The position numbers and the translations under genes are program-made. A stretch of 11,601 bases of DNA. Origin: Anaerolineales bacterium (GTDB lineage: Bacteria > Chloroflexota > Anaerolineae > Anaerolineales > DRKV01). The notes beneath the pieces are model-generated. The model searched no databases. It worked only from the letters and a program-made list of their open reading frames with translations, and had not been told where the DNA came from. The DNA lies in assembly GCA_034435695.1 (NCBI GenBank), contig DAOTWV010000247.1:1-11601 (forward strand). The letters are read 5' to 3'. Positions within the stretch are counted from its first letter, which is position 1. The number at the start of each line of letters is the position of its first letter. This document shows, one piece after another, positions 2,676-11,601 of this stretch.

Positions 2676-2704
2676 TTGACAGGTGCGATTTTTTTATGTA
2701 TCAT
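2676..2704 (+). promoter_or_regulatory. Candidate sigma70 promoter for the membrane-protein/regulator/ABC operon: TTGACA-N17-TATCAT
   Basis: Consensus -35 TTGACA at 2676-2681, a 17-bp spacer, and TATCAT at 2699-2704 with TG immediately upstream. The stretch is AT-rich and about 58 nt upstream of ATG 2762. Confidence 0.5.
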
Positions 2705-2761
2705 AACTTTGTGGCACAGAGTACTTTTTATTCAAGACAACTTTTTGGCTTTGGAGGCACG

Positions 2762-3331
2762 ATGGAAATTTCACAACAAGAGGCGCAGCAATCCCTGCGC
2801 GATATCGAAGCCGTAATGACACACACGCGCCGGGCATTGGCGCACGGCGGCGGCCCCTACTACATGCTGCTGTGGGGCACCATCTGGTTTTTGGGCTTTG
2901 GCCTTTCGCAGTTCGCTTCCGCGGATGTGATTGGGTGGGGCTGGGCGCTGCTGGATACGCTCGGCGCGCTGCTCTCTGCCTGGATTGGCTTCACACAGTC
3001 CCGGCGGGTGCGCAGCATCACCCTGGGGCCGCGTCTCGGATTATTTTGGCTGGCGTTGTTCGGGTACGCCTTTATCTGGATGTGGCTGCAACCCCCGGCG
3101 AGCGGAATGCAACTGGCGCTCATGCTCACCCTGTACACCATGTTCGGCTACGTGGTCATGGGGCTGTGGCTGCACATCAACCTGTCGGTTGGCGTGGGAC
3201 TGGCGGTCAGCGCCATTGCCGTGGCGACGTATTTCTTGCTGCCCGGTTGGTTCTACCTGACGATGGCCGTTTTGGGCGGCGGCACCCTGTTCGCCAGCGG
3301 CTGGGTGATGCTGAAACGCTGGGGAGAGTGA
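2762..3331 (+). CDS. Uncharacterised polytopic membrane protein (about 190 aa; cytoplasmic N-terminus then about 5 TM helices)
   Basis: The start is chosen at ATG 2762 (GGAGG 2753-2757, 4-nt spacer), in frame with the track ORF 2603..3331, whose 5' part overlaps the promoter. The N-terminus METSQQEAQQSLRDIEAVMTHTRRALAHGGGPYY is followed by hydrophobic segments (LLWGTIWFLGFGL; WGWALLDTLGALLSAWIGF; LGLFWLALFGYAFIWMWL; LALMLTLYTMFGYVVMGLWL; VGLAVSAIAVATYFLL...). The stop TGA 3329-3331 lies 1 nt before the regulator ATG. Confidence 0.65.
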   Translation: MEISQQEAQQSLRDIEAVMTHTRRALAHGGGPYYMLLWGTIWFLGFGLSQFASADVIGWGWALLDTLGALLSAWIGFTQSRRVRSITLGPRLGLFWLALFGYAFIWMWLQPPASGMQLALMLTLYTMFGYVVMGLWLHINLSVGVGLAVSAIAVATYFLLPGWFYLTMAVLGGGTLFASGWVMLKRWGE

Positions 3332-5503: not shown

Positions 5504-6448
5504 ATGCGCAGTTTGCAGAAATTCTTAGCGGTGTGTATGTTGTTCCTCAGTTTACTGTTGACGGGGTGCGGTTCTTCCGTAAACGTAGCCGTGGATGGCG
5601 CGGTGCGCCTGCATGACTTGTCGCCGCTGCCCACCCCGCAGAGTACGGATGTGGTGCCCATTCGGGTGGCCGTGGCGGCGGTCATTTCTCCCAAAGGGAC
5701 GGTGGAAAGTTATTCGCCGCTGTTTTCGTACCTGTCGGAGGCCACCGGGCGGCCGGTGGAAATCGTGCAGCGGCGCACCTATGCGGAGGTCAACGACCTG
5801 GTGCGCACCGGTGAAGTAGACCTGGCCTTCGTGTGTACCAGTTCCTACCTGGTGGGGCGGCGGGATTTTGGCATGCAATTGCTGGTTGCCCCCCAGGTGC
5901 AGGGAAGGACGACCTACCAGGCCTACCTGATTGTCCCGGCGGACAGCCCGGCGCAATCGCTGGAAGATTTGCGCGGCGGCGTATTTGCCTTTACGGACCC
6001 GATTTCGTTTTCCGGGCGTATGGTGCCGACCTACTGGCTGCAACAAATGGGCGAAGTCCCGGAAACCTTTTTCAAGCGTACCTTCTTCACCTATAGCCAC
6101 GATGACGCCATCCACGCCGTGGTGCGCCACCTGGCCGATGGGGCTTCGATTGATTCACTGGTCTTCGATTTTGCCGTGCAGCGCGACCCCTCGCTGCTGG
6201 AGCAGGTGCGCATCATCCGCAAATCGGAACCGTACGGCATTCCCCCCGTGGTGGTAGGCCCATCCGTGCGCCCTCAAATTCGCTCGCTGCTGCAGGAAAT
6301 CCTGCTGGGCATGGCAGACGACCCCCAGGGACAGGCCGCCTTGCAAGCGCTGGGCTATGACCGCTTCGTGATGGTGGATGAGGCGCTTTACCAGAGCGCC
6401 ATGCAGGTGCAGGATGCCCTGCACTTCGAGTTGCAGGAAACTCCATGA
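5504..6448 (+). CDS. PhnD-family (phosphonate/oxyanion-binding-like) periplasmic substrate-binding lipoprotein, a sensor-associated 'X' protein of the AioX/ArrX type
   Basis: GGAGG at 5495-5499 precedes the start. The signal peptide MRSLQKFLAVCMLFLSLLLTGC ends in a lipobox (L-T-G-C). The mature region has a PhnD/SsuA-like type-2 periplasmic binding protein fold (VAVAAVISPKG...YSPLFSYLSEATGRPVEIV...VDLAFVCTSSY...QAYLIVPADSP...FAFTDPISFSGRMVPTYWL). It sits directly upstream of, and is translationally coupled to, a sensor kinase. Confidence 0.75.
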   Translation: MRSLQKFLAVCMLFLSLLLTGCGSSVNVAVDGAVRLHDLSPLPTPQSTDVVPIRVAVAAVISPKGTVESYSPLFSYLSEATGRPVEIVQRRTYAEVNDLVRTGEVDLAFVCTSSYLVGRRDFGMQLLVAPQVQGRTTYQAYLIVPADSPAQSLEDLRGGVFAFTDPISFSGRMVPTYWLQQMGEVPETFFKRTFFTYSHDDAIHAVVRHLADGASIDSLVFDFAVQRDPSLLEQVRIIRKSEPYGIPPVVVGPSVRPQIRSLLQEILLGMADDPQGQAALQALGYDRFVMVDEALYQSAMQVQDALHFELQETP

Positions 6449-7881
6449 CGGAAGAAACCCGCACCCAACGTTTTTATAACGCCCTCTGGCGCTGGATAGG
6501 CAGCGTCAACGTACGCACCAAGATTTTTGGCATCGTGCTTGGCAGCACCGTGATGCTCAGTTTGAGTTTCATCGTGCAGGTACGCGTGACCATGTTTCGC
6601 TACCTGGAAGCCCAGGCCCGTGAGGAAGGTATCTCCATTGCCCACGATGTGGCCGCCCGCTCTACCGATTTGATTCTCATCAACGACCTGTACGGCCTGG
6701 ACCGTCTGCTGCAGGATACCGAAAACAACTTTCGGGATGTGCGCTACGCCTTCATCGTGGCCGATAACGGGGATGTGCTGGCGCACACCTTTTCGGGAGG
6801 TTTCCCGCTGGATTTACTCTCGGCAAATACGGTGACGCCTTTGGGGGATGAGCACATCGCCGTGCTGCAAACCGAAGAGGGCCTGGTGTGGGACGTCGCC
6901 ATGCCCATCTTCGAGGGACGCCTGGGAACGGCGCGCGTTGGCATCTCCGACCGTTTTTTGCAGGAAACCCTGGGGATGCTGACCTCTCAAATGGGGTTGA
7001 CGGTCGTCCTGGTGCTGGTCTTCAGTCTGCTGGCGGCCACATTCCTGACCTGGGTGCTGACGCGCCCCATCCTGGCGCTGGTGGAGGCCACCGAGCGCAT
7101 CGGGCAGGGCGATTTTTCGGTGCGCGTCACCCCCTGGGCGGACGATGAAATCGGCGACCTGGCGGTTGCTTTCAATCAGATGAGCGCCGACTTGTCCCGC
7201 CTGGACGAAATCCGCCGCGAGCGCGAAGACCTGCGCAGGCAACTGCTGGAAGGCATCATCAACGCCCAGGAAGAAGAACGCCGCCGGATTGCGCGCGAAC
7301 TGCACGACAGCACCTCGCAAAGCCTGACTTCCCTCAAGGTGGGGCTGCGCATGTTGGAAGCACAGGTGGATGAGTCCCTCCGTCCCCACGTGCTGGACCT
7401 GCACCGGGTGGCCGGCGAGACTCTCGATAACGTGCACGCCCTGGCCGTGCAATTGCGCCCCATCATGCTGGATGACCTCGGTCTGGAAGCGGCCCTCACC
7501 CGCCTGATTGAAGAATGGCAGGCGCGTTACCGCATCCCGGTGGATGCCCTCATCCGTCTGGGAGAGGAGCGCCTGAAAAGCGAAATCGAGGTAGTCTTGT
7601 ACCGCATTACGCAAGAAGGCCTGACCAACATCGCCCGTCACGCCCAGGCCGGACAGGTCAGCATCTTGATTGAGCGCCGCCCTGACGAGGTATTGGAAAT
7701 CATCGAGGATGACGGCCGCGGTTTCGACCGTTCCGGCGTACACCAGGGCAAACACCTCGGTCTGCTGGGGATGCGCGAACGCGTCGAACTGGTGGGCGGC
7801 CAGTTTTCCGTCGAGACCGCACCGGGCGAGGGCACCAGCATCTTCATTCGTATTCCGCTCAGCGGGAATGGAACGCCATGA
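6445..7881 (+). CDS. Sensor histidine kinase (2 TM, about 135-aa periplasmic loop, HAMP, HisKA_3, HATPase_c; NarX/DegS-type)
   Basis: The ATG overlaps the binding-protein stop (ATGA at 6445-6448). TM1 is about residues 26-47 and TM2 about 183-205. HAMP is LTRPILALVEATERIGQGDFSVRVTPWADDEIGDLAVAFNQMSADL. The HisKA_3 H-box is EEERRRIARELHDSTSQSLTSLKVGL. The ATPase G-boxes are DDGRGF and GLLGMRERVELVGG. Confidence 0.9.
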   Translation: MTEETRTQRFYNALWRWIGSVNVRTKIFGIVLGSTVMLSLSFIVQVRVTMFRYLEAQAREEGISIAHDVAARSTDLILINDLYGLDRLLQDTENNFRDVRYAFIVADNGDVLAHTFSGGFPLDLLSANTVTPLGDEHIAVLQTEEGLVWDVAMPIFEGRLGTARVGISDRFLQETLGMLTSQMGLTVVLVLVFSLLAATFLTWVLTRPILALVEATERIGQGDFSVRVTPWADDEIGDLAVAFNQMSADLSRLDEIRREREDLRRQLLEGIINAQEEERRRIARELHDSTSQSLTSLKVGLRMLEAQVDESLRPHVLDLHRVAGETLDNVHALAVQLRPIMLDDLGLEAALTRLIEEWQARYRIPVDALIRLGEERLKSEIEVVLYRITQEGLTNIARHAQAGQVSILIERRPDEVLEIIEDDGRGFDRSGVHQGKHLGLLGMRERVELVGGQFSVETAPGEGTSIFIRIPLSGNGTP

Positions 7882-8531
7882 ACAAAATTCGTGTTTTTCT
7901 GGCCGATGACCATGCCGTATTGCGCAGCGGGCTGCGCCTGCTGCTCTCGCAATCGGACAAAATCGAGGTGGTGGGGGAAGCCGAAAGCGGCCTGGATACC
8001 ATCCGGCTGGTGGAGGCGTTGCAGCCCGATTTGATTTTGCTGGATTTATCCATGCCCCGTCTGGGCGGGCTGGATGCGCTGCCCACCATACGGCGCGTCG
8101 CCCCCCAGGCGCGCATTCTGGTGCTGACGATGCACAGCGACCCGCAGTATTTGCAGCAGGCCATCCGCAACGGCGCGGCCGGCTACCTGCTCAAGAAGGC
8201 CGCCGATAGCGAACTGCTGGCCGCCATCGAAGCGGTCATGCGCGGCGAAGTGTACGTGCATTCCTCGATGACGCGCGCCCTGCTCGAAGACCTGCTTCCC
8301 ACGCAGAAGGAACAGGATGAAGACGCCTGGGCGAACCTGAGCCGGCGCGAGCAAAATGTGCTGCGGCTGGTGGCGCTGGGGCATACCGGCGCGGAAATCG
8401 CCGACATGCTTTCCATCAGCCAGAAGACGGTGGATACCTACCGGGCGCGCGGTATGGAAAAACTGGGGCTGAAGACCCGCGCCGCCCTGGTGCGGTTTGC
8501 CCTCGAACGCGGCATCCTGACTTCCGATTGA
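7878..8531 (+). CDS. NarL/FixJ-family response regulator (REC + LuxR-type HTH)
   Basis: The ATG overlaps the kinase stop (ATGA at 7878-7881). The receiver domain has DD (ADDH), phospho-Asp (LILLDLSMP) and Lys (LLKK). The C-terminal LuxR HTH is LSRREQNVLRLVALGHTGAEIADMLSISQKTVDTYRARGMEKLG. Confidence 0.9.
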   Translation: MNKIRVFLADDHAVLRSGLRLLLSQSDKIEVVGEAESGLDTIRLVEALQPDLILLDLSMPRLGGLDALPTIRRVAPQARILVLTMHSDPQYLQQAIRNGAAGYLLKKAADSELLAAIEAVMRGEVYVHSSMTRALLEDLLPTQKEQDEDAWANLSRREQNVLRLVALGHTGAEIADMLSISQKTVDTYRARGMEKLGLKTRAALVRFALERGILTSD

Positions 8532-8656
8532 GCCTTTTCGTATGCGGTTCGCAAAGGGGGAAAGGTCTCCACTAGCCAGTGGGGAACAACGGAAAATCTT
8601 TCCGTACCAGGGCAGGGTACCCTCGGAACGCGGGCGTATGCCGTGCTCCATGGTAT

Positions 8657-8702
8657 CCGCAGATTACGCGGATTTTTTCTGTGCTATCGGCGTAATCTGC
8701 GG
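8657..8702. promoter_or_regulatory. Perfect 13-bp inverted repeat CCGCAGATTACGC-N20-GCGTAATCTGCGG in the regulator-to-molybdoenzyme intergenic region
   Basis: The arms are 8657-8669 and 8690-8702; the spacer ggattttttctgtgctatcg contains a T6 run. No T-tract follows either arm. It lies 126 bp after the regulator stop and 254 bp before the B-subunit start. Confidence 0.6.
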
Positions 8703-8879
8703 GTGAATTGGCGCATATTTGGAATTGCTGGGGGAAATGGGAAGGGGGGAGAAACCTTTTGGGAAGAATGTCACACACTGGGGCGCAACATGTCATAGGG
8801 CGGTAGGGGAAATCCCTACAAAGCGCGGGGAGGACATCGGGTTTTTCCCGATAAACAAAACACGGGCAATCGTCTATCC

Positions 8880-8885
8880 TATAAA
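8880..8885 (+). promoter_or_regulatory. Weak candidate -10 (TATAAA) upstream of the molybdoenzyme operon
   Basis: TATAAA at 8880-8885 is about 70 nt upstream of ATG 8956. There is no convincing -35, and activator-dependent promoters often lack one. Confidence 0.2.
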
Positions 8886-8955
8886 CGCTCAAAACCGGCC
8901 GAGTCCTGGCCGTCGCTCCCATTTTTCCCAATCCTTTTAGAGGAGGATGTTTGTT

Positions 8956-9696
8956 ATGGCTGATGTACTCACCCCGGTCAGCGCGCTCGAGAGAATGCGA
9001 GAAGACTTGAAGCGTGCTCTGGCCAAACCCGTGAACGAACGCCGCTGGGTGATGGTCATTGACCTGCGCAAATGCGTCGGGTGCAATGCATGTACCATCT
9101 CCTGCAATGCCGAAAATCGTTTGCCACCTGGTGTGGTCTATCGCCCGGTGCTCGATATGGAAGTCGGCACGTATCCGAACGTACGTCGTGCCTTCCTGCC
9201 GCGCCCCTGCATGCAGTGCGATGAACCGCCCTGCACGCCGGTGTGCCCGGTGAACGCCACCTGGAAGCGCGATGACGGCATCGTGGTAATCGATTACGAC
9301 AAGTGTATCGGTTGCCGCTATTGCATTGCTGCCTGCCCCTACAACGCCCGTACCTTTGACAAGGGCCTGAATTACACCGACGATACCACCACCAACGAAA
9401 ACTTCGTCAGCCTGGATGCCGTGGCTTATGAAGAAGCACCGGCCTTCGATTACGGCAAGGAATGGCCGCGTGATGGTGGTTCGCCGATTGGCAACGCTCG
9501 CAAGTGCCACTTCTGCCTGCATCGCCTGGAAGCCGGAATGCTGCCGGCCTGCACCACCACCTGCATCGGCGAGGCTACTTACTTCGGTGACGCCAACGAC
9601 CCCGACTCGCTGGTTTCCGAACTGATTGCCAGTCCCAATGTGATGCGTCTCAAGGAAGAATTGGGGACTAAGCCGCGCGTTTACTACCTTGTGTAA
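8956..9696 (+). CDS. Four-cluster 4Fe-4S ferredoxin-type electron-transfer subunit of a complex iron-sulfur molybdoenzyme (TtrB/PsrB/NrfC-like)
   Basis: The start is placed at ATG 8956 (AGGAGG 8941-8946, 9-nt spacer), because the track's ATG 8947 directly abuts the SD. Four Cys clusters are present: [37 protein letters not shown] and CHFC...CTTTC. There is no Tat signal. The 246-aa size matches TtrB. Confidence 0.85.
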
Positions 9697-9712
9697 GGAC
9701 CGGAGGCTCATA

Positions 9713-10840
9713 ATGAACGGAAAGAATTCCCTGTCGAAAGTGTTTTGGGCCATCACGGCGGTTGCCTTCGTGATTGGCCTGTATGGTTTGTATGACCGCT
9801 TTGCCAACGGCCACATGCACACGGCCTACGGTTCTTACGTTCCGTGGGGGCTGTGGATTGCTGCGTACACCATGCTGGTGGGCGTGTCGGCAGGTGCGTT
9901 TGCCGCTTCGGCGGTGGCGATTACCACCCGCAAGGAAAAGTGGGAACGCTTCGCCAAATTTGGCCTGCTGGTAGCGCTGGGCGCTTTTGCCGGCGGCATG
10001 CTCAACGTACTGCTCGACCTGGGGCACCCGGAACGTCTGCTGCGGCTGTACTTCGCCAACAACCCCTTCTCGATGATGGGGCTGATGGCCTGGTTCTACC
10101 TGCTCTACGGCCTGCTGCTGGTCTTCATGATCTGGCGCATCTGGAGCCAGGGCGTGGATGACCTGATGGTCAAACTCGGCTATCTGGCCGTGCCCTTTGC
10201 GGTGCTCTTCGCCGGTGCGGAAGGTGCGCTCTTCGGTGTGGTCGGCGCCCGCCCCCTGTGGGAATCTGGCCTGACCCCCATCCTCTTCCTGCTGGAAGGC
10301 GCCATTGGCGGTCTGGCCGCGGCTACGCTGGCCAACTGGATTGCCGGTGCGCTGGAAGATGACCAGTATCAGCGCCTGGGCCGCATTCTGCTCGGTCTGC
10401 TGGCCGTGCTGGTAATCTTCGAATGGGCGGAATACTCCACCGGTCTGTATGCCGGCATCCCGGCCAAGGCTGAAACCCTGCGCAACATCTTGTTTGGCCC
10501 CTACTGGTGGGTCTTCTGGCTGGTGCATCTGGCCGCCGGTGTGGTGCTGCCGATTTTGCTGCTGGCCTTCCAGCCGAAGAACCAGGGCATGATTACGCTT
10601 TCGGCCGCCCTGGTACTCTTCACCGCAATCACTACCAAATTGAACCTGGTCATCCCGGCGCTGGCTCAACCGGAAATCGAAGGGCTGGAAAACGCCTATC
10701 ATGGTCCGGGGCTGTCGTTCACCTACTTCCCGACCATGTCGGAATGGATGCTGTTCATCTGGACGGTTTCCCTTGCTGCCCTGATTTTCCTGGCCGGTTA
10801 TCAGTTCCTGCCCCAAATGCTCAAGAAAGAGGTGAAATAA
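9713..10840 (+). CDS. NrfD/PsrC-family integral membrane quinol-interacting anchor subunit (TtrC/PsrC-like)
   Basis: The start is at ATG 9713 (GGAGG 9702-9706, 6-nt spacer); the track start 9689 precedes the upstream stop. It is a 375-aa polytopic membrane protein of about 8-9 TM ([39 protein letters not shown], ...), the architecture typical of PsrC/NrfD/TtrC. Confidence 0.85.
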
Positions 10841-10841
10841 C

Positions 10842-11601
10842 ATGGCCGAGAAACAAACGACCCAACCCGAAAACTGCGGTCTTTCGCGCCGTGATTTTCT
10901 GAAAATGTCTGCCGTGGTCGGCGGTACGGCAGCCTTTGTTGGCAGCCTGCCGCAGGTCAAGAAAGCGATGGCGGCCCAGACGGCGCAGAGCAGTTACCCG
11001 CTGGCCAACCCGGAAAACGTACTGTACAGCATCTGCCTGAACTGCCACAACGCCTGCACCATCAAAGCGCATATTCTGGACGGCACGCTGGTCAAAATCG
11101 ACGGCAACCCCTACAGCCCGCAGAACCTGCAGCCGCACATCGCTGAAAGCACCTCTCCGGCGGAAGCCGCGCACGCCGATGCGCCGGTCTGCCCCAAGGG
11201 CCAGGCGGGCGTGCAGATTGCCTACGACCCCTACCGCATCCGCAAGGTGCTCAAGCGCGCCGGCAAGCGCGGTGAGAACAAATGGGTTACCATCGAATGG
11301 GACCAGTTCATCGACGAAGTGGTCAACGGCGGCGACCTGTTTGGTGAAGGGCATGTGGACGGTTTCAAAGATGTCTGGAAACTGCGCGACCCCGACCTGA
11401 GCAAGGAACTGGGCGCCGATGCGGCTGCCGTCGCCAGCGGTGACATGACTCTGGACGAATTCAAGTCCAAGCACGCCGCGCACCTCGACCTGCTGATTGA
11501 CCCCGACCACCCCGACCTGGGGCCGGTCAACAACCAGTTCGTCTTCCAGGGCGGGCGCGTGGAGCATGGCCGCAAGGAATTCATCAAGCGCTGGGTGTAC
11601 T
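10842..11601 (+). CDS. Molybdopterin (bis-MGD) oxidoreductase catalytic subunit, N-terminal 253 aa only (TtrA/PsrA/PhsA/ArrA-like), with Tat signal
   Basis: GAGGTG at 10828-10833 lies 8 nt before ATG 10842, 1 nt after the membrane-subunit stop. The twin-arginine motif is SRRDFLKMSAVVGGTAAFVGS...AMA. The N-terminal FeS (FS0) motif is C-x2-C-x3-C (CLNCHNAC) with a fourth Cys at PVCPKG. The frame is open to the window end. It is absent from the ORF track because no stop is in the window. Confidence 0.85.
   Translation, partial: MAEKQTTQPENCGLSRRDFLKMSAVVGGTAAFVGSLPQVKKAMAAQTAQSSYPLANPENVLYSICLNCHNACTIKAHILDGTLVKIDGNPYSPQNLQPHIAESTSPAEAAHADAPVCPKGQAGVQIAYDPYRIRKVLKRAGKRGENKWVTIEWDQFIDEVVNGGDLFGEGHVDGFKDVWKLRDPDLSKELGADAAAVASGDMTLDEFKSKHAAHLDLLIDPDHPDLGPVNNQFVFQGGRVEHGRKEFIKRWVY

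What the first reader, a model, noticed from the sequence alone, without database searches (positions are those of the whole stretch)
8657..8702. Perfect 13-bp inverted repeat with 20-nt T-rich spacer between the response regulator and the molybdoenzyme operon
CCGCAGATTACGC...GCGTAATCTGCGG is a 13/13 match, far beyond chance in a 425-bp intergenic region. It is not a canonical intrinsic terminator, since no U-tract follows either arm, although TTTTTT sits in the loop. Candidate roles: operator for a dimeric HTH protein, possibly the adjacent LuxR-type regulator, which binds palindromes; an RNA stem acting as a processing or attenuation element in a read-through transcript from the regulator gene; or a remnant of a small mobile-element inverted repeat.
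Basis: seen in the sequence. Interest (0 to 1): 0.55.

Follow-up and report, generated by a model that had tools for sequence, protein, structure and literature searches.

The report
Copy of a widespread nonamer-repeat hairpin
The perfect 13-bp inverted repeat is real, but it is not a private operator for the neighbouring regulator: it is one copy of a dispersed hairpin repeat built from the 9-mer GCAGATTAC, which recurs with the same core sequence in intergenic DNA of at least eight bacterial phyla and seems not to have been described.

Summary
CCGCAGATTACGC (8657-8669) and GCGTAATCTGCGG (8690-8702) match 13/13, and this is the only perfect inverted repeat of 10 bp or more in the window.

The operator interpretation is not supported.
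- None of 19 other distinct loci with the same regulator-then-ttrB gene order has this hairpin.
- They conserve a different, covarying palindrome, GTnnGG-N5-CCnnAC (window 8803-8819), and a second site (8837-8852).
- These sites lie downstream of the hairpin. The hairpin sits in a spacer of about 270 nt that most relatives lack.

An exact search for the 11-nt arm cores found at least 119 loci in one-genome-per-species collections, where about 0.6 is expected by chance. Of these, 73 are Chloroflexota. The rest are Planctomycetota, Acidobacteriota, Bacteroidota, Proteobacteria and others.

The canonical form is RTCC-(GCAGATTAC)n-GCAGAT-loop-ATCTGC-(GTAATCTGC)n-GGAY. The window copy is the commonest one-unit form.

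In Chloroflexaceae the hairpin rides in a MITE (small non-autonomous transposon) of about 125 nt, with CAGGG-type terminal repeats and 10-bp target duplications.

There is no Rfam match, no hit for the sequence in the searchable literature, and no linked transposase.

Function is inferred only. The element is probably selfish or neutral. It would fold as a -30 kcal/mol RNA hairpin in the 3' region of the regulator operon.

The parts
8657..8669 (.). Left perfect arm, CCGCAGATTACGC. It consists of the foot CC, one full nonamer unit GCAGATTAC, and GC.
   Evidence: Family anatomy.
8690..8702 (.). Right perfect arm, GCGTAATCTGCGG, the reverse complement of the left arm.
8670..8689 (.). Spacer, GGATTTTTTCTGTGCTATCG. 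Its ends are the degenerate inner half-unit: GCgGAT/ATCgGC here, against GCAGAT/ATCTGC in the family. They give 3 more pairs after a G.G mismatch. The apical loop is 8674-8685 and T6 lies at 8674-8679. A T-rich start to the loop (GATTTTT) is shared with copies in other Chloroflexota (L030, L031, L032, L103).
8654..8705 (.). The full hairpin element. It has 19 pairs and one mismatch and corresponds to RTCC-(GCAGATTAC)1-GCAGAT...ATCTGC-(GTAATCTGC)1-GGAY. It is nearly palindromic, so transcripts of either strand fold alike.
   Evidence: Fold of -29.5 to -30.3 kcal/mol. The covariance model built from 36 family members scores it 60.3 bits on the + strand and 54.4 bits on the - strand.
8655..8684 (+). 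Alternative small hairpin, ATCCGC-AGATTAC-GCGGAT (8655-8673), followed by TTTTTTCTGTG. This is a weak intrinsic-terminator-like site that would form before the right arm is transcribed.
   Evidence: one site found, 0.9 expected from shuffles.: -7.6 kcal/mol.
7878..8531 (+). Context only: NarL/LuxR-type response regulator gene. The hairpin starts 124 nt after its stop codon.
8803..8819 (.). Context only: conserved palindrome GTAGGGGAAATCCCTAC. This is the better candidate operator for the regulator and is not part of the hairpin element.
   Evidence: It occurs once in the window. It is present between the regulator gene and ttrB in 13 of the 19 other distinct syntenic loci, with palindrome-preserving changes.
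8837..8852 (.). Context only: second conserved site, TCGGGTTTTTCCCGAT, about 34 nt downstream of the first.
8956..9696 (+). Context only: TtrB-like 4Fe-4S subunit, first gene of a ttrBCA-like operon. The start is at 8956, not 8947. The hairpin ends about 250 nt upstream.

Best explanation
The inverted repeat is one copy of a dispersed, multi-phylum hairpin repeat whose arms are made of the nonamer GCAGATTAC.

The canonical form is RTCC-(GCAGATTAC)n-GCAGAT-loop-ATCTGC-(GTAATCTGC)n-GGAY. The window copy is the commonest form, with one full unit per arm. It has one inner mismatch and a wobble pair at the foot.

It is not part of the conserved regulatory module of the ttrBCA-like operon. It lies in a spacer of about 270 nt that most relatives lack, between the regulator's stop codon and the conserved operator/promoter block.

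How it most likely works:
- Shown: the element spreads or persists as a unit in intergenic DNA, next to unrelated genes and in every gene-orientation class.
- Shown: in Chloroflexaceae it is carried by a MITE with CAGGG-type terminal repeats and 10-bp target duplications.
- Shown: pairing between the arms is maintained by compensatory changes.
- Inferred: elsewhere the bare hairpin is copied by an unknown route. Candidates are a trans-acting single-strand (HUH/Y1-type) enzyme, or slippage combined with template switching between the arms.
- Inferred: at this locus it is transcribed as the 3' region of the sensor-kinase/regulator operon. There it folds into a -30 kcal/mol hairpin that would block 3' exonucleases or read-through into the reductase operon. 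Alternatively, it has no local function at all.
For: Family membership:
About 0.6 is expected by chance in 596 Gb.
- My tally of the record titles: 73 Chloroflexota, 11 Planctomycetota, 11 Acidobacteriota, 9 Bacteroidota, 6 Proteobacteria, and others. The set includes isolates and contigs of 1 to 7.6 Mb.
- BLAST also found 9 diverged copies on the Gemmatirosa megaplasmids.
- Unit counts per arm are (1,1) in 47 copies, (2,2) in 34, and unequal in 40. The foot is TCC/GGA in 72 of 121 copies, with compensatory ACC/GGT and GCC/GGC variants.
- In 36 one-unit copies, 93% of cells are paired and there is covariation outside the ascertained core.
- The covariance model scores the window copy at 60 bits.

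Not the operator:
-.

Dispersed and non-autonomous:
- About 90% of copies are intergenic.
- No neighbouring gene family recurs.
- The classes of intergenic region match the background (p = 0.45).

Mobility:
- A filled site in Chloroploca mongolica corresponds to an empty site in C. asiatica.
- The MITE terminal repeats and 10-bp target duplications are seen directly. They match the ISAs1 family traits given in PMC11946415.

Persistence:
- The hairpin is kept at an orthologous site in three Anaerolineaceae MAGs whose flanks are only 73-81% identical.
Against: - The copy number in the window's own genome is unknown. Only one copy was seen in about 18 kb of that species. No copy was found in 394 kb around homologous regulator loci.
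- The family set was ascertained with exact arm cores, and the scan was truncated. Diversity and abundance are therefore under-sampled, and the conservation of the core is partly circular.
- No terminal repeats or target duplication flank the window copy, so insertion at this site is inferred, not shown.
- No trans-acting enzyme was identified.
- Identical cores across phyla are not explained by any mechanism I could test.
- Gene calls for the context statistics were crude longest-ORF calls.
- Some MAG taxon labels on short contigs may be binning errors.
Confidence: 0.72

Rival explanations
1. Operator for the adjacent NarL/LuxR-type response regulator. A dimer, or a pair of dimers, would bind the two arms and control the ttrBCA-like operon or autoregulate.
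For: The repeat is a perfect palindrome in the regulator-ttrB spacer. Regulators of this family bind inverted repeats (established knowledge).
Against: - It is absent from all 19 other distinct syntenic loci, including the 86%-identical regulator locus L124.
- A different palindrome with compensatory changes, and a second site, are conserved instead, closer to ttrB.
- The arms are 33 bp apart centre to centre, and the spacing between arms varies from 12 to 28 nt among family copies.
- The same sequence lies next to unrelated genes in many phyla.
Confidence: 0.04
2. The primary role is a transcription terminator or attenuator of the sensor-kinase/regulator operon. The left-arm mini-hairpin plus T6 would terminate, and the full 19-bp hairpin would be the competing or stabilising structure.
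For: - A terminator-like site lies at 8655-8684.
- The element lies 124 nt after the stop codon and upstream of the conserved ttrB promoter block.
- Relatives with long spacers also carry a hairpin after the regulator gene. L124 has a 13-bp stem, L185 a -48 kcal/mol hairpin of tandem 8-mers, and L191 a canonical terminator plus a hairpin of 9-mer units.
- Family copies lie a median of 48 nt from the nearest stop codon.
Against: - The mini-hairpin is weak (-7.6 kcal/mol), and one such consensus hit is what shuffles give by chance (0.9 expected).
- No U-tract follows the full hairpin.
- Across the family there is no depletion from divergent (promoter-side) intergenic regions: 23 of 91 against 76 of 386 in the background, p = 0.45.
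- Termination would not require the same sequence in eight phyla.
Confidence: 0.2
3. A REP/REPIN-type element mobilised in trans by a RAYT or other HUH Y1 single-strand transposase. The hairpin would be the enzyme's recognition structure. Each unit ends in TTAC, and its complement starts with GTAA, which resembles a foot tetranucleotide.
For: - Bare hairpins recur without terminal repeats or target duplications. Within one Bacteroidota MAG the loops are also alike, which implies that the whole hairpin is copied.
- Loop flip-flop occurs between copies.
- A RAYT-associated REP of Ignavibacterium album, GTAGCACAGATTAGTAATCTGTGCTAC, shares the CAGATTA/TAATCTG core (PMC6006769 Table S1).
- Y1 transposases occur in these phyla (PMC6006769).
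Against: - There is no conserved unpaired GTAG or CGTC foot. The foot is RTCC, and it is paired.
- No Y1 transposase or other recurrent gene lies within 8 kb of the 119 copies.
- REP sequences normally co-evolve with their RAYT and differ between species (PMC3733652, PMC6006769). Here the core is identical across phyla.
Confidence: 0.2
4. A double-stranded DNA binding array for a conserved protein that reads tandem 9-bp units, in the way ribbon-helix-helix or nucleoid proteins read contiguous heptads. Hairpin formation would be incidental.
For: - The units are contiguous and variable in number.
- Solo arms exist, and so does a 7 x 30-nt one-arm array, so a partner arm is not obligatory.
- Sequence, not only structure, is conserved.
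Against: - Compensatory changes between arms and at the foot indicate that pairing, or arm-to-arm templating, matters.
- No candidate protein was found.
- The copies are scattered next to unrelated genes.
Confidence: 0.08
5. A chance or locally evolved palindrome that is unrelated to the other loci.
For: Only one copy is visible in the available sequence of this species.
Against: - The probability by simulation is below 0.002.
- Foot, unit, inner half-unit and T-rich loop start all match the family in the same register.
- The family model scores it 60 bits.
Confidence: 0.02

Closest known systems
REP / BIME / REPIN elements (repetitive extragenic palindromes, RAYT-associated)
   Same: Both are short, multi-copy, intergenic palindromes next to unrelated genes. 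Both are non-autonomous. Both form RNA or single-strand DNA hairpins, often lie close to gene 3' ends, and can be nested in larger palindromes (PMC3733652, PMC3116915).
   Different: - This family has no unpaired GTAG or CGTC tag.
- Its arms are tandem 9-mers that vary in number.
- Its loops are long and variable (12-28 nt).
- No RAYT gene was found nearby.
- The core sequence is the same across phyla, whereas REPs are usually species- or genus-specific.
- It shows no depletion from divergent intergenic regions.
Short tandem intergenic repeats shared across phyla: the TAACTGA heptamer repeats of Beggiatoaceae, Cyanobacteria and Bacteroidetes, and the cyanobacterial STRR heptamers
   Same: In both, identical short units (5-11 nt) are tandemly repeated in intergenic DNA and have a patchy cross-phylum distribution with no evident transfer mechanism (PMC4679880). 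From memory, STRR heptamers can sit on both arms of helices. The same loci also hold hairpins of other tandem units: (CGTGAAA)n, (GGAGATT)n, (TTGGTCA)n and (TAGTCGAG)n.
   Different: Here the unit is a nonamer, usually present as only 1 to 3 copies per arm. It is nearly always in two inverted arrays that form a hairpin with a defined foot (RTCC/GGAY). TAACTGA repeats are direct repeats just upstream of start codons.
MITEs derived from DDE insertion sequences (ISAs1 family)
   Same: In Chloroploca, Viridilinea and a related Chloroflexaceae MAG the hairpin is the centre of 114-133-nt units. These have 18-bp terminal inverted repeats starting CAGGG (or CATGG) and 10-bp target-site duplications, and a filled/empty site pair was found. 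ISAs1 elements have inverted repeats that start CAGGG and a 10-bp direct repeat (PMC11946415).
   Different: The window copy, and copies outside Chloroflexaceae, have no such terminal repeats or duplications. In the family the innermost part is the most conserved, which is the opposite of a MITE. No parent IS was seen.
Intrinsic (Rho-independent) terminators and DNA-uptake-sequence inverted pairs that double as terminators
   Same: Both are stable stem-loops downstream of a gene. The left-arm mini-hairpin with T6 fits the terminator consensus.
   Different: No U-tract follows the full hairpin, and the loop is 12 nt. The sequence is identical across phyla, and the orientation-class statistics do not fit a dedicated terminator.
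NarL/LuxR-family operator palindromes
   Same: Both are inverted repeats near a gene for such a regulator.
   Different: This one is not conserved with the regulator, and its spacing is wrong and variable. The conserved GTnnGG-N5-CCnnAC palindrome at 8803-8819 fits that role better.

Membership tests
GCAGATTAC nonamer-repeat hairpin family (defined here) | Arms contain GCAGATTACGC and GCGTAATCTGC in inverted orientation, 12-28 nt apart. | tested here: met
   Window 8659-8700 matches the same pattern that found at least 119 loci.
GCAGATTAC nonamer-repeat hairpin family (defined here) | Paired foot RTCC...GGAY and inner half-unit GCAGAT...ATCTGC, in the same register. | tested here: met
   The window has ATCC...GGGT, with a U.G wobble at the foot, and GCgGAT...ATCgGC, with one G.G mismatch. 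The covariance model scores it 60.3 bits.
GCAGATTAC nonamer-repeat hairpin family (defined here) | Multiple copies within one genome. | not testable with these tools
   Only about 18 kb of the source species is available, and it holds one copy. Multi-copy status is shown in other genomes: at least 15 loci in Viridilinea halotolerans and at least 11 in Chloroploca mongolica.
Response-regulator (NarL/LuxR) operator | Conserved together with the regulator and its target operon in related genomes. | tested here: not met
   It is absent from all 19 other distinct regulator-then-ttrB loci. A different palindrome is conserved there.
Response-regulator (NarL/LuxR) operator | Half-sites at a fixed spacing that suits a dimer. 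| tested here: not met
   The arms are 33 bp apart centre to centre. The spacer ranges from 12 to 28 nt among family copies.
Response-regulator (NarL/LuxR) operator | Bound by the phosphorylated regulator. | not testable with these tools
   This needs EMSA or footprinting.
Intrinsic terminator | A G+C-rich stem, a short loop (3-8 nt) and a U-tract directly after the stem. | tested here: inconclusive
   The full hairpin has a 12-nt loop and no U-tract, so it does not fit. The left-arm mini-hairpin 8655-8673 plus T6 does fit. However, it is only -7.6 kcal/mol, and one hit is what shuffles give (0.9 expected).
REP/REPIN (RAYT-associated) | A conserved unpaired GTAG (or CGTC) tetranucleotide at the foot of the hairpin. 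| tested here: not met
   The foot is RTCC, and it is paired with GGAY. The definition follows PMC3733652.
REP/REPIN (RAYT-associated) | Copies flank a Y1 (RAYT) transposase gene somewhere in the genome. | tested here: inconclusive
   No recurrent transposase-like family was found among 685 ORFs within the fetched loci (up to 8 kb each) around 119 copies. Whole genomes could not be searched.
REP/REPIN (RAYT-associated) | Many intergenic copies next to unrelated genes. | tested here: met
   for the family and not for the source genome.
MITE of a DDE transposon (ISAs1-like) | Terminal inverted repeats plus target-site duplication flanking the unit. | tested here: not met
   This is met for Chloroflexaceae copies, which have CAGGG-type terminal repeats and 10-bp duplications. 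It is not met for the window copy, around which no such terminal repeats or duplication are found.
Short tandem repeat arrays (STRR / LSSR / TAACTGA type) | Head-to-tail copies of a 5-11-nt unit in intergenic DNA. | tested here: inconclusive
   The family shows 1 to 3 full units per arm, solo arms, and a 7 x 30-nt array. The window copy has only 1 full unit plus 1 partial unit per arm.
Any Rfam family | A match to a curated covariance model. | tested here: not met
   There were no matches at E <= 10 in window 8400-9100. There were none at gathering score in 10 loci holding long copies.
Integron attC site | R''/R' core sites RYYYAAC ... GTTRRRY at the ends of an imperfect hairpin. | tested here: not met
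   By inspection there is no AAC/GTT core at the ends of the arms. The definition is from established knowledge.

The most novel reading that the evidence does not exclude
The GCAGATTAC hairpin may be the cis-element of an undescribed, sequence-specific, trans-acting system shared by at least eight phyla. That system could be a single-strand DNA (HUH-type) mobilising enzyme or a hairpin-binding protein.

On this reading it would be a pan-bacterial, REP-like element whose core sequence is held constant across phyla. It can expand by whole 9-nt units and can hitch-hike inside ISAs1-type MITEs. It would be one example of a wider, unstudied class of hairpins with tandem-unit arms in Chloroflexota, Planctomycetota and their neighbours.
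Probability: 0.3. Interest if true: 0.75.

Novelty: new variant of a known kind. Interest (0 to 1): 0.55.

Why it matters
For this locus, the result redirects attention. The hairpin should not be annotated as the regulator's operator. The conserved palindromes at 8803-8819 and 8837-8852 are the sites to test.

More broadly, dispersed palindromic repeats are normally lineage-specific. A hairpin with the same 22-nt core in Chloroflexota, Planctomycetota, Acidobacteriota, Bacteroidota, Gemmatimonadota and others is unusual. It is kept at orthologous sites while the flanks diverge by 20-27%.

This implies one of three things: an unknown sequence-specific partner, frequent inter-phylum transfer of a 50-nt element, or a self-templating repeat mechanism. 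Any of the three would add to what is known from REP/RAYT systems and cyanobacterial short tandem repeats. It would also give a handle on gene flow among poorly cultured phyla.

Tried and rejected
- Rfam on the window region (E <= 10) and on 10 loci with long copies gave nothing.
- Full-text searches for the 18-mers and the 9-mers found only chance co-occurrences in unrelated papers.
- The viral contig scan found no matches.
- A plasmid BLAST found only the Gemmatirosa megaplasmids, which carry no annotation.
- I looked for a linked mobilising gene. All-against-all BLAST of the immediate neighbours, and of all 685 ORFs in the 119 loci, gave only small clusters. These were common housekeeping families: ABC ATPase, kinases, SDR, epimerase, FtsX, sigma factors.
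- I looked for target-site duplications around bare hairpins. The flanks extend the palindrome by 2 nt and are not direct repeats.
- The class 3 Y1-transposase 'CnGA-foot' structures turned out to be unrelated sequences.
- CGTC-tagged REPs have 8-9-bp stems and 4-5-nt loops, and are not similar.
- A first outward-pairing tally was confounded by unequal unit numbers on the two arms. I replaced it with unit-aware parsing.
- An apparent frameshift in the L001 molybdoenzyme gene is a run of N in the scaffold, not biology.
- The Elhai 2008 paper on small dispersed repeats could not be read.
- I considered DnaA-box, sigma-54, NarL 7-2-7, attC, CRISPR-repeat and tRNA-anticodon-arm resemblances by eye. 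None fits.
Full report
**1. Observation**

The sequence is as described. CCGCAGATTACGC lies at 8657-8669 and its exact reverse complement GCGTAATCTGCGG at 8690-8702, separated by 20 nt that include T6.

The pairing continues in both directions:
- Inward, there is one G.G mismatch and then GAT/ATC, leaving a 12-nt apical loop.
- Outward, there are U.G, A-U and U.G pairs, reaching 8654/8705.

As RNA the core folds at about -30 kcal/mol. A 101-nt context folds better than all 200 shuffles on either strand.

It is the only perfect inverted repeat of 10 bp or more in the 11.6-kb window. In 1000 Markov simulations of the 424-nt spacer the longest repeat reached 12 bp, and only twice.

An independent MAG contig of the same species (L001) has the identical element.

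No U-tract follows the full hairpin. The left arm alone, however, makes a 6-bp hairpin (ATCCGC/GCGGAT, -7.6 kcal/mol), and the T6 run follows it directly. The consensus scan scores this as terminator-like, although one such hit is what shuffles give by chance.

**2. Genomic setting**

The window encodes the following genes, all on the + strand:
- a PhnD-like binding protein (5504-6448);
- an sCache/HAMP/HisKA_3 sensor kinase (6445-7881);
- a NarL/LuxR-type response regulator (7878-8531);
- a TtrB-like 4Fe-4S protein, whose start is at 8956 rather than 8947;
- an NrfD-type membrane subunit (9689-10840);
- a Tat-signal molybdopterin subunit starting at 10842.

This is a ttrBCA-like gene order. 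The best NCBIfam hits are TtrB and TtrA, below their cut-offs.

Named homologues point to Chloroflexota, specifically Anaerolineae or Anaerolineales.

The hairpin starts 124 nt after the regulator's stop codon and ends about 250 nt before the ttrB start.

**3. Is it the regulator's operator?**

I collected loci with the same regulator-then-ttrB order:
- L124/L125, which are identical to each other (86% regulator identity and 85% TtrB identity to the window), found through the closest TtrB homologues;
- 18 further loci from a metagenome scan with the regulator protein, at 50-68% identity.

That makes 19 distinct loci besides the window. None has the hairpin between the two genes. A covariance model of the hairpin family finds only the window and L001 in 394 kb of these loci.

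What is conserved is a different palindrome, GTnnGG-N5-CCnnAC:
- In the window it is GTAGGGGAAATCCCTAC at 8803-8819, its only occurrence in the window.
- It keeps its symmetry through paired changes, for example GTCAGGAAAAACCTGAC and GTGGGGGAATCCCCCAC.
- About 34 nt downstream lies a second site, nGGnTTTTCCnGnT (window 8837-8852).

In most relatives this block begins 10-60 nt after the regulator's stop codon. The window and L124 have about 270 nt of extra, mutually unalignable spacer, and the hairpin lies inside that spacer.

The operator reading is therefore not supported. The conserved block is the better candidate.

**4. What it is**

I searched one genome per species (596 Gb) for the 11-nt arm cores, GCAGATTACGC-N12-28-GCGTAATCTGC. 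About 0.6 is expected by chance.

By my count of the record titles:

| Group | Loci |
|---|---|
| Chloroflexota | 73 |
| Planctomycetota | 11 |
| Acidobacteriota | 11 |
| Bacteroidota | 9 |
| Proteobacteria (mostly Gallionellaceae) | 6 |
| Spirochaetota | 2 |
| Verrucomicrobiota, Gemmatimonadota, Armatimonadota and other singletons | 7 |

- The Chloroflexota include Chloroploca, Viridilinea, Kouleothrix, Anaerolinea, Ardenticatenia, Caldilinea and Promineifilum.
- The set includes isolates (Kouleothrix, Chryseobacterium, Terrimonas) and contigs of 1 to 7.6 Mb, so binning error cannot explain the spread.
- BLAST added nine diverged copies on the Gemmatirosa kalamazoonensis megaplasmids.

The arms are head-to-tail copies of the nonamer GCAGATTAC. 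The typical element is RTCC-(GCAGATTAC)n-GCAGAT-loop-ATCTGC-(GTAATCTGC)n-GGAY.
- Full units per arm are (1,1) in 47 copies, (2,2) in 34, and unequal in 40.
- The window copy is a (1,1) element with GCgGAT/ATCgGC as the inner half-unit and ATCC/GGGT as the foot.
- Its T-rich loop start (GATTTTT) is shared with copies in Anaerolinea, Anaerolineaceae, Caldilinea and Ardenticatenaceae MAGs.

Pairing is maintained:
- Outer units show 10 double (compensatory) changes against 13 single mismatches.
- The first foot position is U-A in 21 copies, A-U in 6 and G-C in 6.
- In 36 one-unit copies, 93% of cells pair. No shuffle reaches the observed covariation score.

**5. Behaviour of the family**

- About 90% of copies are intergenic by crude ORF calls.
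- The classes of intergenic region that hold them are 16 convergent, 23 divergent and 52 tandem. This does not differ from the background in the same loci (81, 76 and 229; p = 0.45). The family as a whole therefore does not behave like dedicated terminators.
- Copies do sit closer to stop codons (median 48 nt) than to the farthest possible start codons (median 97 nt).
- Neighbouring genes are unrelated, and no protein family recurs within the fetched loci. The largest clusters are ordinary housekeeping families.
- There are no hits in viral contigs.

In Chloroploca, Viridilinea and a related Chloroflexaceae MAG the hairpin is the centre of units of 114-133 nt. These units have 18-bp terminal inverted repeats (CAGGGCTGATGCAAAGTC or CATGGCGGTTGCAAAGTC) and clear 10-bp target-site duplications. 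A filled site in C. mongolica corresponds to an empty site in C. asiatica. These are the hallmarks of the ISAs1 family (PMC11946415). In that clade, therefore, the hairpin is multiplied by a MITE.

Elsewhere bare hairpins recur without terminal repeats or duplications. Within one Bacteroidota MAG even the loops are alike.

Other forms also exist:
- solo arms;
- a 7 x 30-nt array of one arm;
- loops in either orientation between otherwise equal copies.

The element can be long-lived. Three Anaerolineaceae MAGs whose flanks are 73-81% identical keep it at the same place, between a methyltransferase gene and a PIG-L-type deacetylase gene (my reading of the sequences). Several Chloroploca species pairs share orthologous copies.

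**6. A wider class**

The same loci contain other intergenic hairpins whose arms are tandem short units of different sequence. Examples are (CGTGAAA)n, (GGAGATT)n, (TTGGTCA)n, (ATTTGCA)n, (GGAATTA)n and (CAGTGGGT)n.

Two relatives of this very locus carry such hairpins just after the regulator gene:
- L185 3620-3713, tandem 8-mers, -48 kcal/mol;
- L191 3747-3803, units of CACGAATAA.

The spot downstream of this regulator gene has therefore acquired different tandem-unit hairpins independently.

**7. Mechanism**

Shown:
- membership of a dispersed, cross-phylum hairpin family;
- absence from orthologous regulatory regions;
- maintenance of pairing;
- MITE-borne transposition in one clade.

Inferred:
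- How bare hairpins spread. Candidates are a trans-acting single-strand HUH/Y1 enzyme, or slippage by whole units with template switching between arms. The second would explain the symmetric unit numbers, the compensatory changes and the loop flip-flop.
- What the window copy does. The most likely local effect is passive. The element would be transcribed at the 3' end of the sensor-kinase/regulator operon, and its -30 kcal/mol hairpin would impede 3' exonucleases and read-through into the reductase operon. The weak mini-hairpin with T6 may add some termination. It may equally have no function.

The identity of the core across phyla is not explained by anything I could test.

**8. Comparison with known elements**

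- It works most like REP/REPIN elements, but it fails their defining tag (an unpaired GTAG or CGTC foot), and no RAYT gene was seen (PMC3733652, PMC6006769).
- One RAYT-linked REP of Ignavibacterium album shares the CAGATTA/TAATCTG core. This is a lead, not a test.
- The tandem-unit architecture and the patchy cross-phylum sharing recall the TAACTGA heptamer repeats (PMC4679880). From memory, they also recall cyanobacterial STRR sequences.
- The MITE definition is met only in Chloroflexaceae.
- There is no Rfam family, and the sequence does not appear in any searchable paper.

**9. Verdict**

- The operator idea is not supported.
- For this locus the feature is an ordinary passenger.
- The family it belongs to is unusual: a nonamer-built hairpin with the same core in at least eight phyla, and apparently undescribed.
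- I class it as a new variant of a known kind (dispersed palindromic repeats), with interest 0.55.

Limits:
- The family was ascertained by exact-core matching and the scan was truncated.
- The gene calls were crude.
- The copy number in the source genome is unknown.
- No experimental data were available.

Noticed in passing
window 8803-8819 and 8837-8852: A conserved palindrome, GTAGGGGAAATCCCTAC, and a second site, TCGGGTTTTTCCCGAT, lie upstream of ttrB. They are present in most regulator-then-ttrB loci, with palindrome-preserving changes. They are probably the real response-regulator operator/promoter module.
   Followed up: partly
window 8947-8958: The longest ORF of the 4Fe-4S gene starts at 8947, directly after the GAGGAGG ribosome-binding site. 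The protein on record starts at the ATG at 8956, which has normal spacing.
   Followed up: yes
window 8896-8913: A small hairpin, CCGGCCGAGTCCTGGCCG, lies between the conserved promoter block and the ribosome-binding site. It is kept in L124 and L122 with changed bases. It may be a 5'-UTR element of the ttrB-like mRNA.
   Followed up: no
window 5504-8531: The sensor arrangement differs from classical TtrS. A separate PhnD-like periplasmic binding protein is followed by an sCache_3_2/HAMP/HisKA_3 kinase and a NarL-type regulator. The best NCBIfam hits are MctS/MctR, below their cut-offs. The reductase hits TtrB/TtrA below their cut-offs, so its substrate is uncertain.
   Followed up: partly
L004, L016, L022, L038, L039, L044, L065, L085, L091, L097, L104, L111, L116 (for example L085 3818-3948): Chloroploca and Viridilinea carry MITEs of 114-133 nt. 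They have terminal repeats CAGGGCTGATGCAAAGTC or CATGGCGGTTGCAAAGTC and, at six loci, identical or near-identical 10-bp target duplications (approximate at others). The GCAGATTAC hairpin sits at their centre. This is an ISAs1-like signature, but no parent IS was seen.
   Followed up: partly
L185 3620-3713; L191 3747-3803: Other relatives carry different tandem-unit hairpins at the same place, just after the regulator gene. L185 has 8-mers (TAGTCGAG-like, -48 kcal/mol). L191 has CACGAATAA units, after a canonical terminator.
   Followed up: partly
L033 3996-4058 and 7941-7997; L066 144-221, 1040-1093, 1925-2005; L093 2244-2327; L081 6275-6352; L115 2519-2595: There is a general class of intergenic hairpins whose arms are tandem 7-9-nt units of various sequences, including GGAGATT, CGTGAAA, TTGGTCA, GGGTTCG, ATTTGCA, GGAATTA, CAGTGGGT and GTAGTCA. 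They occur in Chloroflexota, Planctomycetota and Acidobacteriota.
   Followed up: no
L067 1776-1998: In a Gemmatimonadales MAG, one hairpin is followed by seven tandem 30-nt copies of its right arm plus foot (ATCTGCGTAATCTGCGTAATCTGCGGATTC).
   Followed up: no
L018 ~1104, L037 ~206, L118 ~2654, L121 ~849, L060 ~2799: Solo arms occur: tandem GnAATCTGC units ending in GGAT with no partner arm nearby. Some sit in the loop of an outer purine/pyrimidine-rich stem.
   Followed up: no
L051 467-509, L105 7490-7538, L109 347-390: The hairpin is retained at an orthologous site inside an operon in three Anaerolineaceae MAGs with 73-81% flank identity. It lies between a methyltransferase-like gene and a PIG-L/LmbE-like deacetylase gene (my reading of the sequences). 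Its foot is about 10 nt upstream of the deacetylase start codon.
   Followed up: partly
L040 about 2700-3090 (reverse strand): At the site that is empty of the hairpin MITE, C. asiatica has a different insertion containing five tandem copies of a 56-nt unit.
   Followed up: no
L001 about 10040-10150: The MAG contig has a run of N inside the molybdopterin subunit gene. This explains the split gene call and the spurious minus-strand ORF there. It is not a biological frameshift.
   Followed up: yes
L004-L110 (Chloroflexaceae loci): Other recurrent hairpins occur in Chloroflexaceae. One is CCCCCTCTCCCAC with a 3-nt loop. Another is a set of long A/T-flanked stems ending ...TGGCGGC-TTC-GCCGCCA..., which look like bidirectional terminators.
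   Followed up: no
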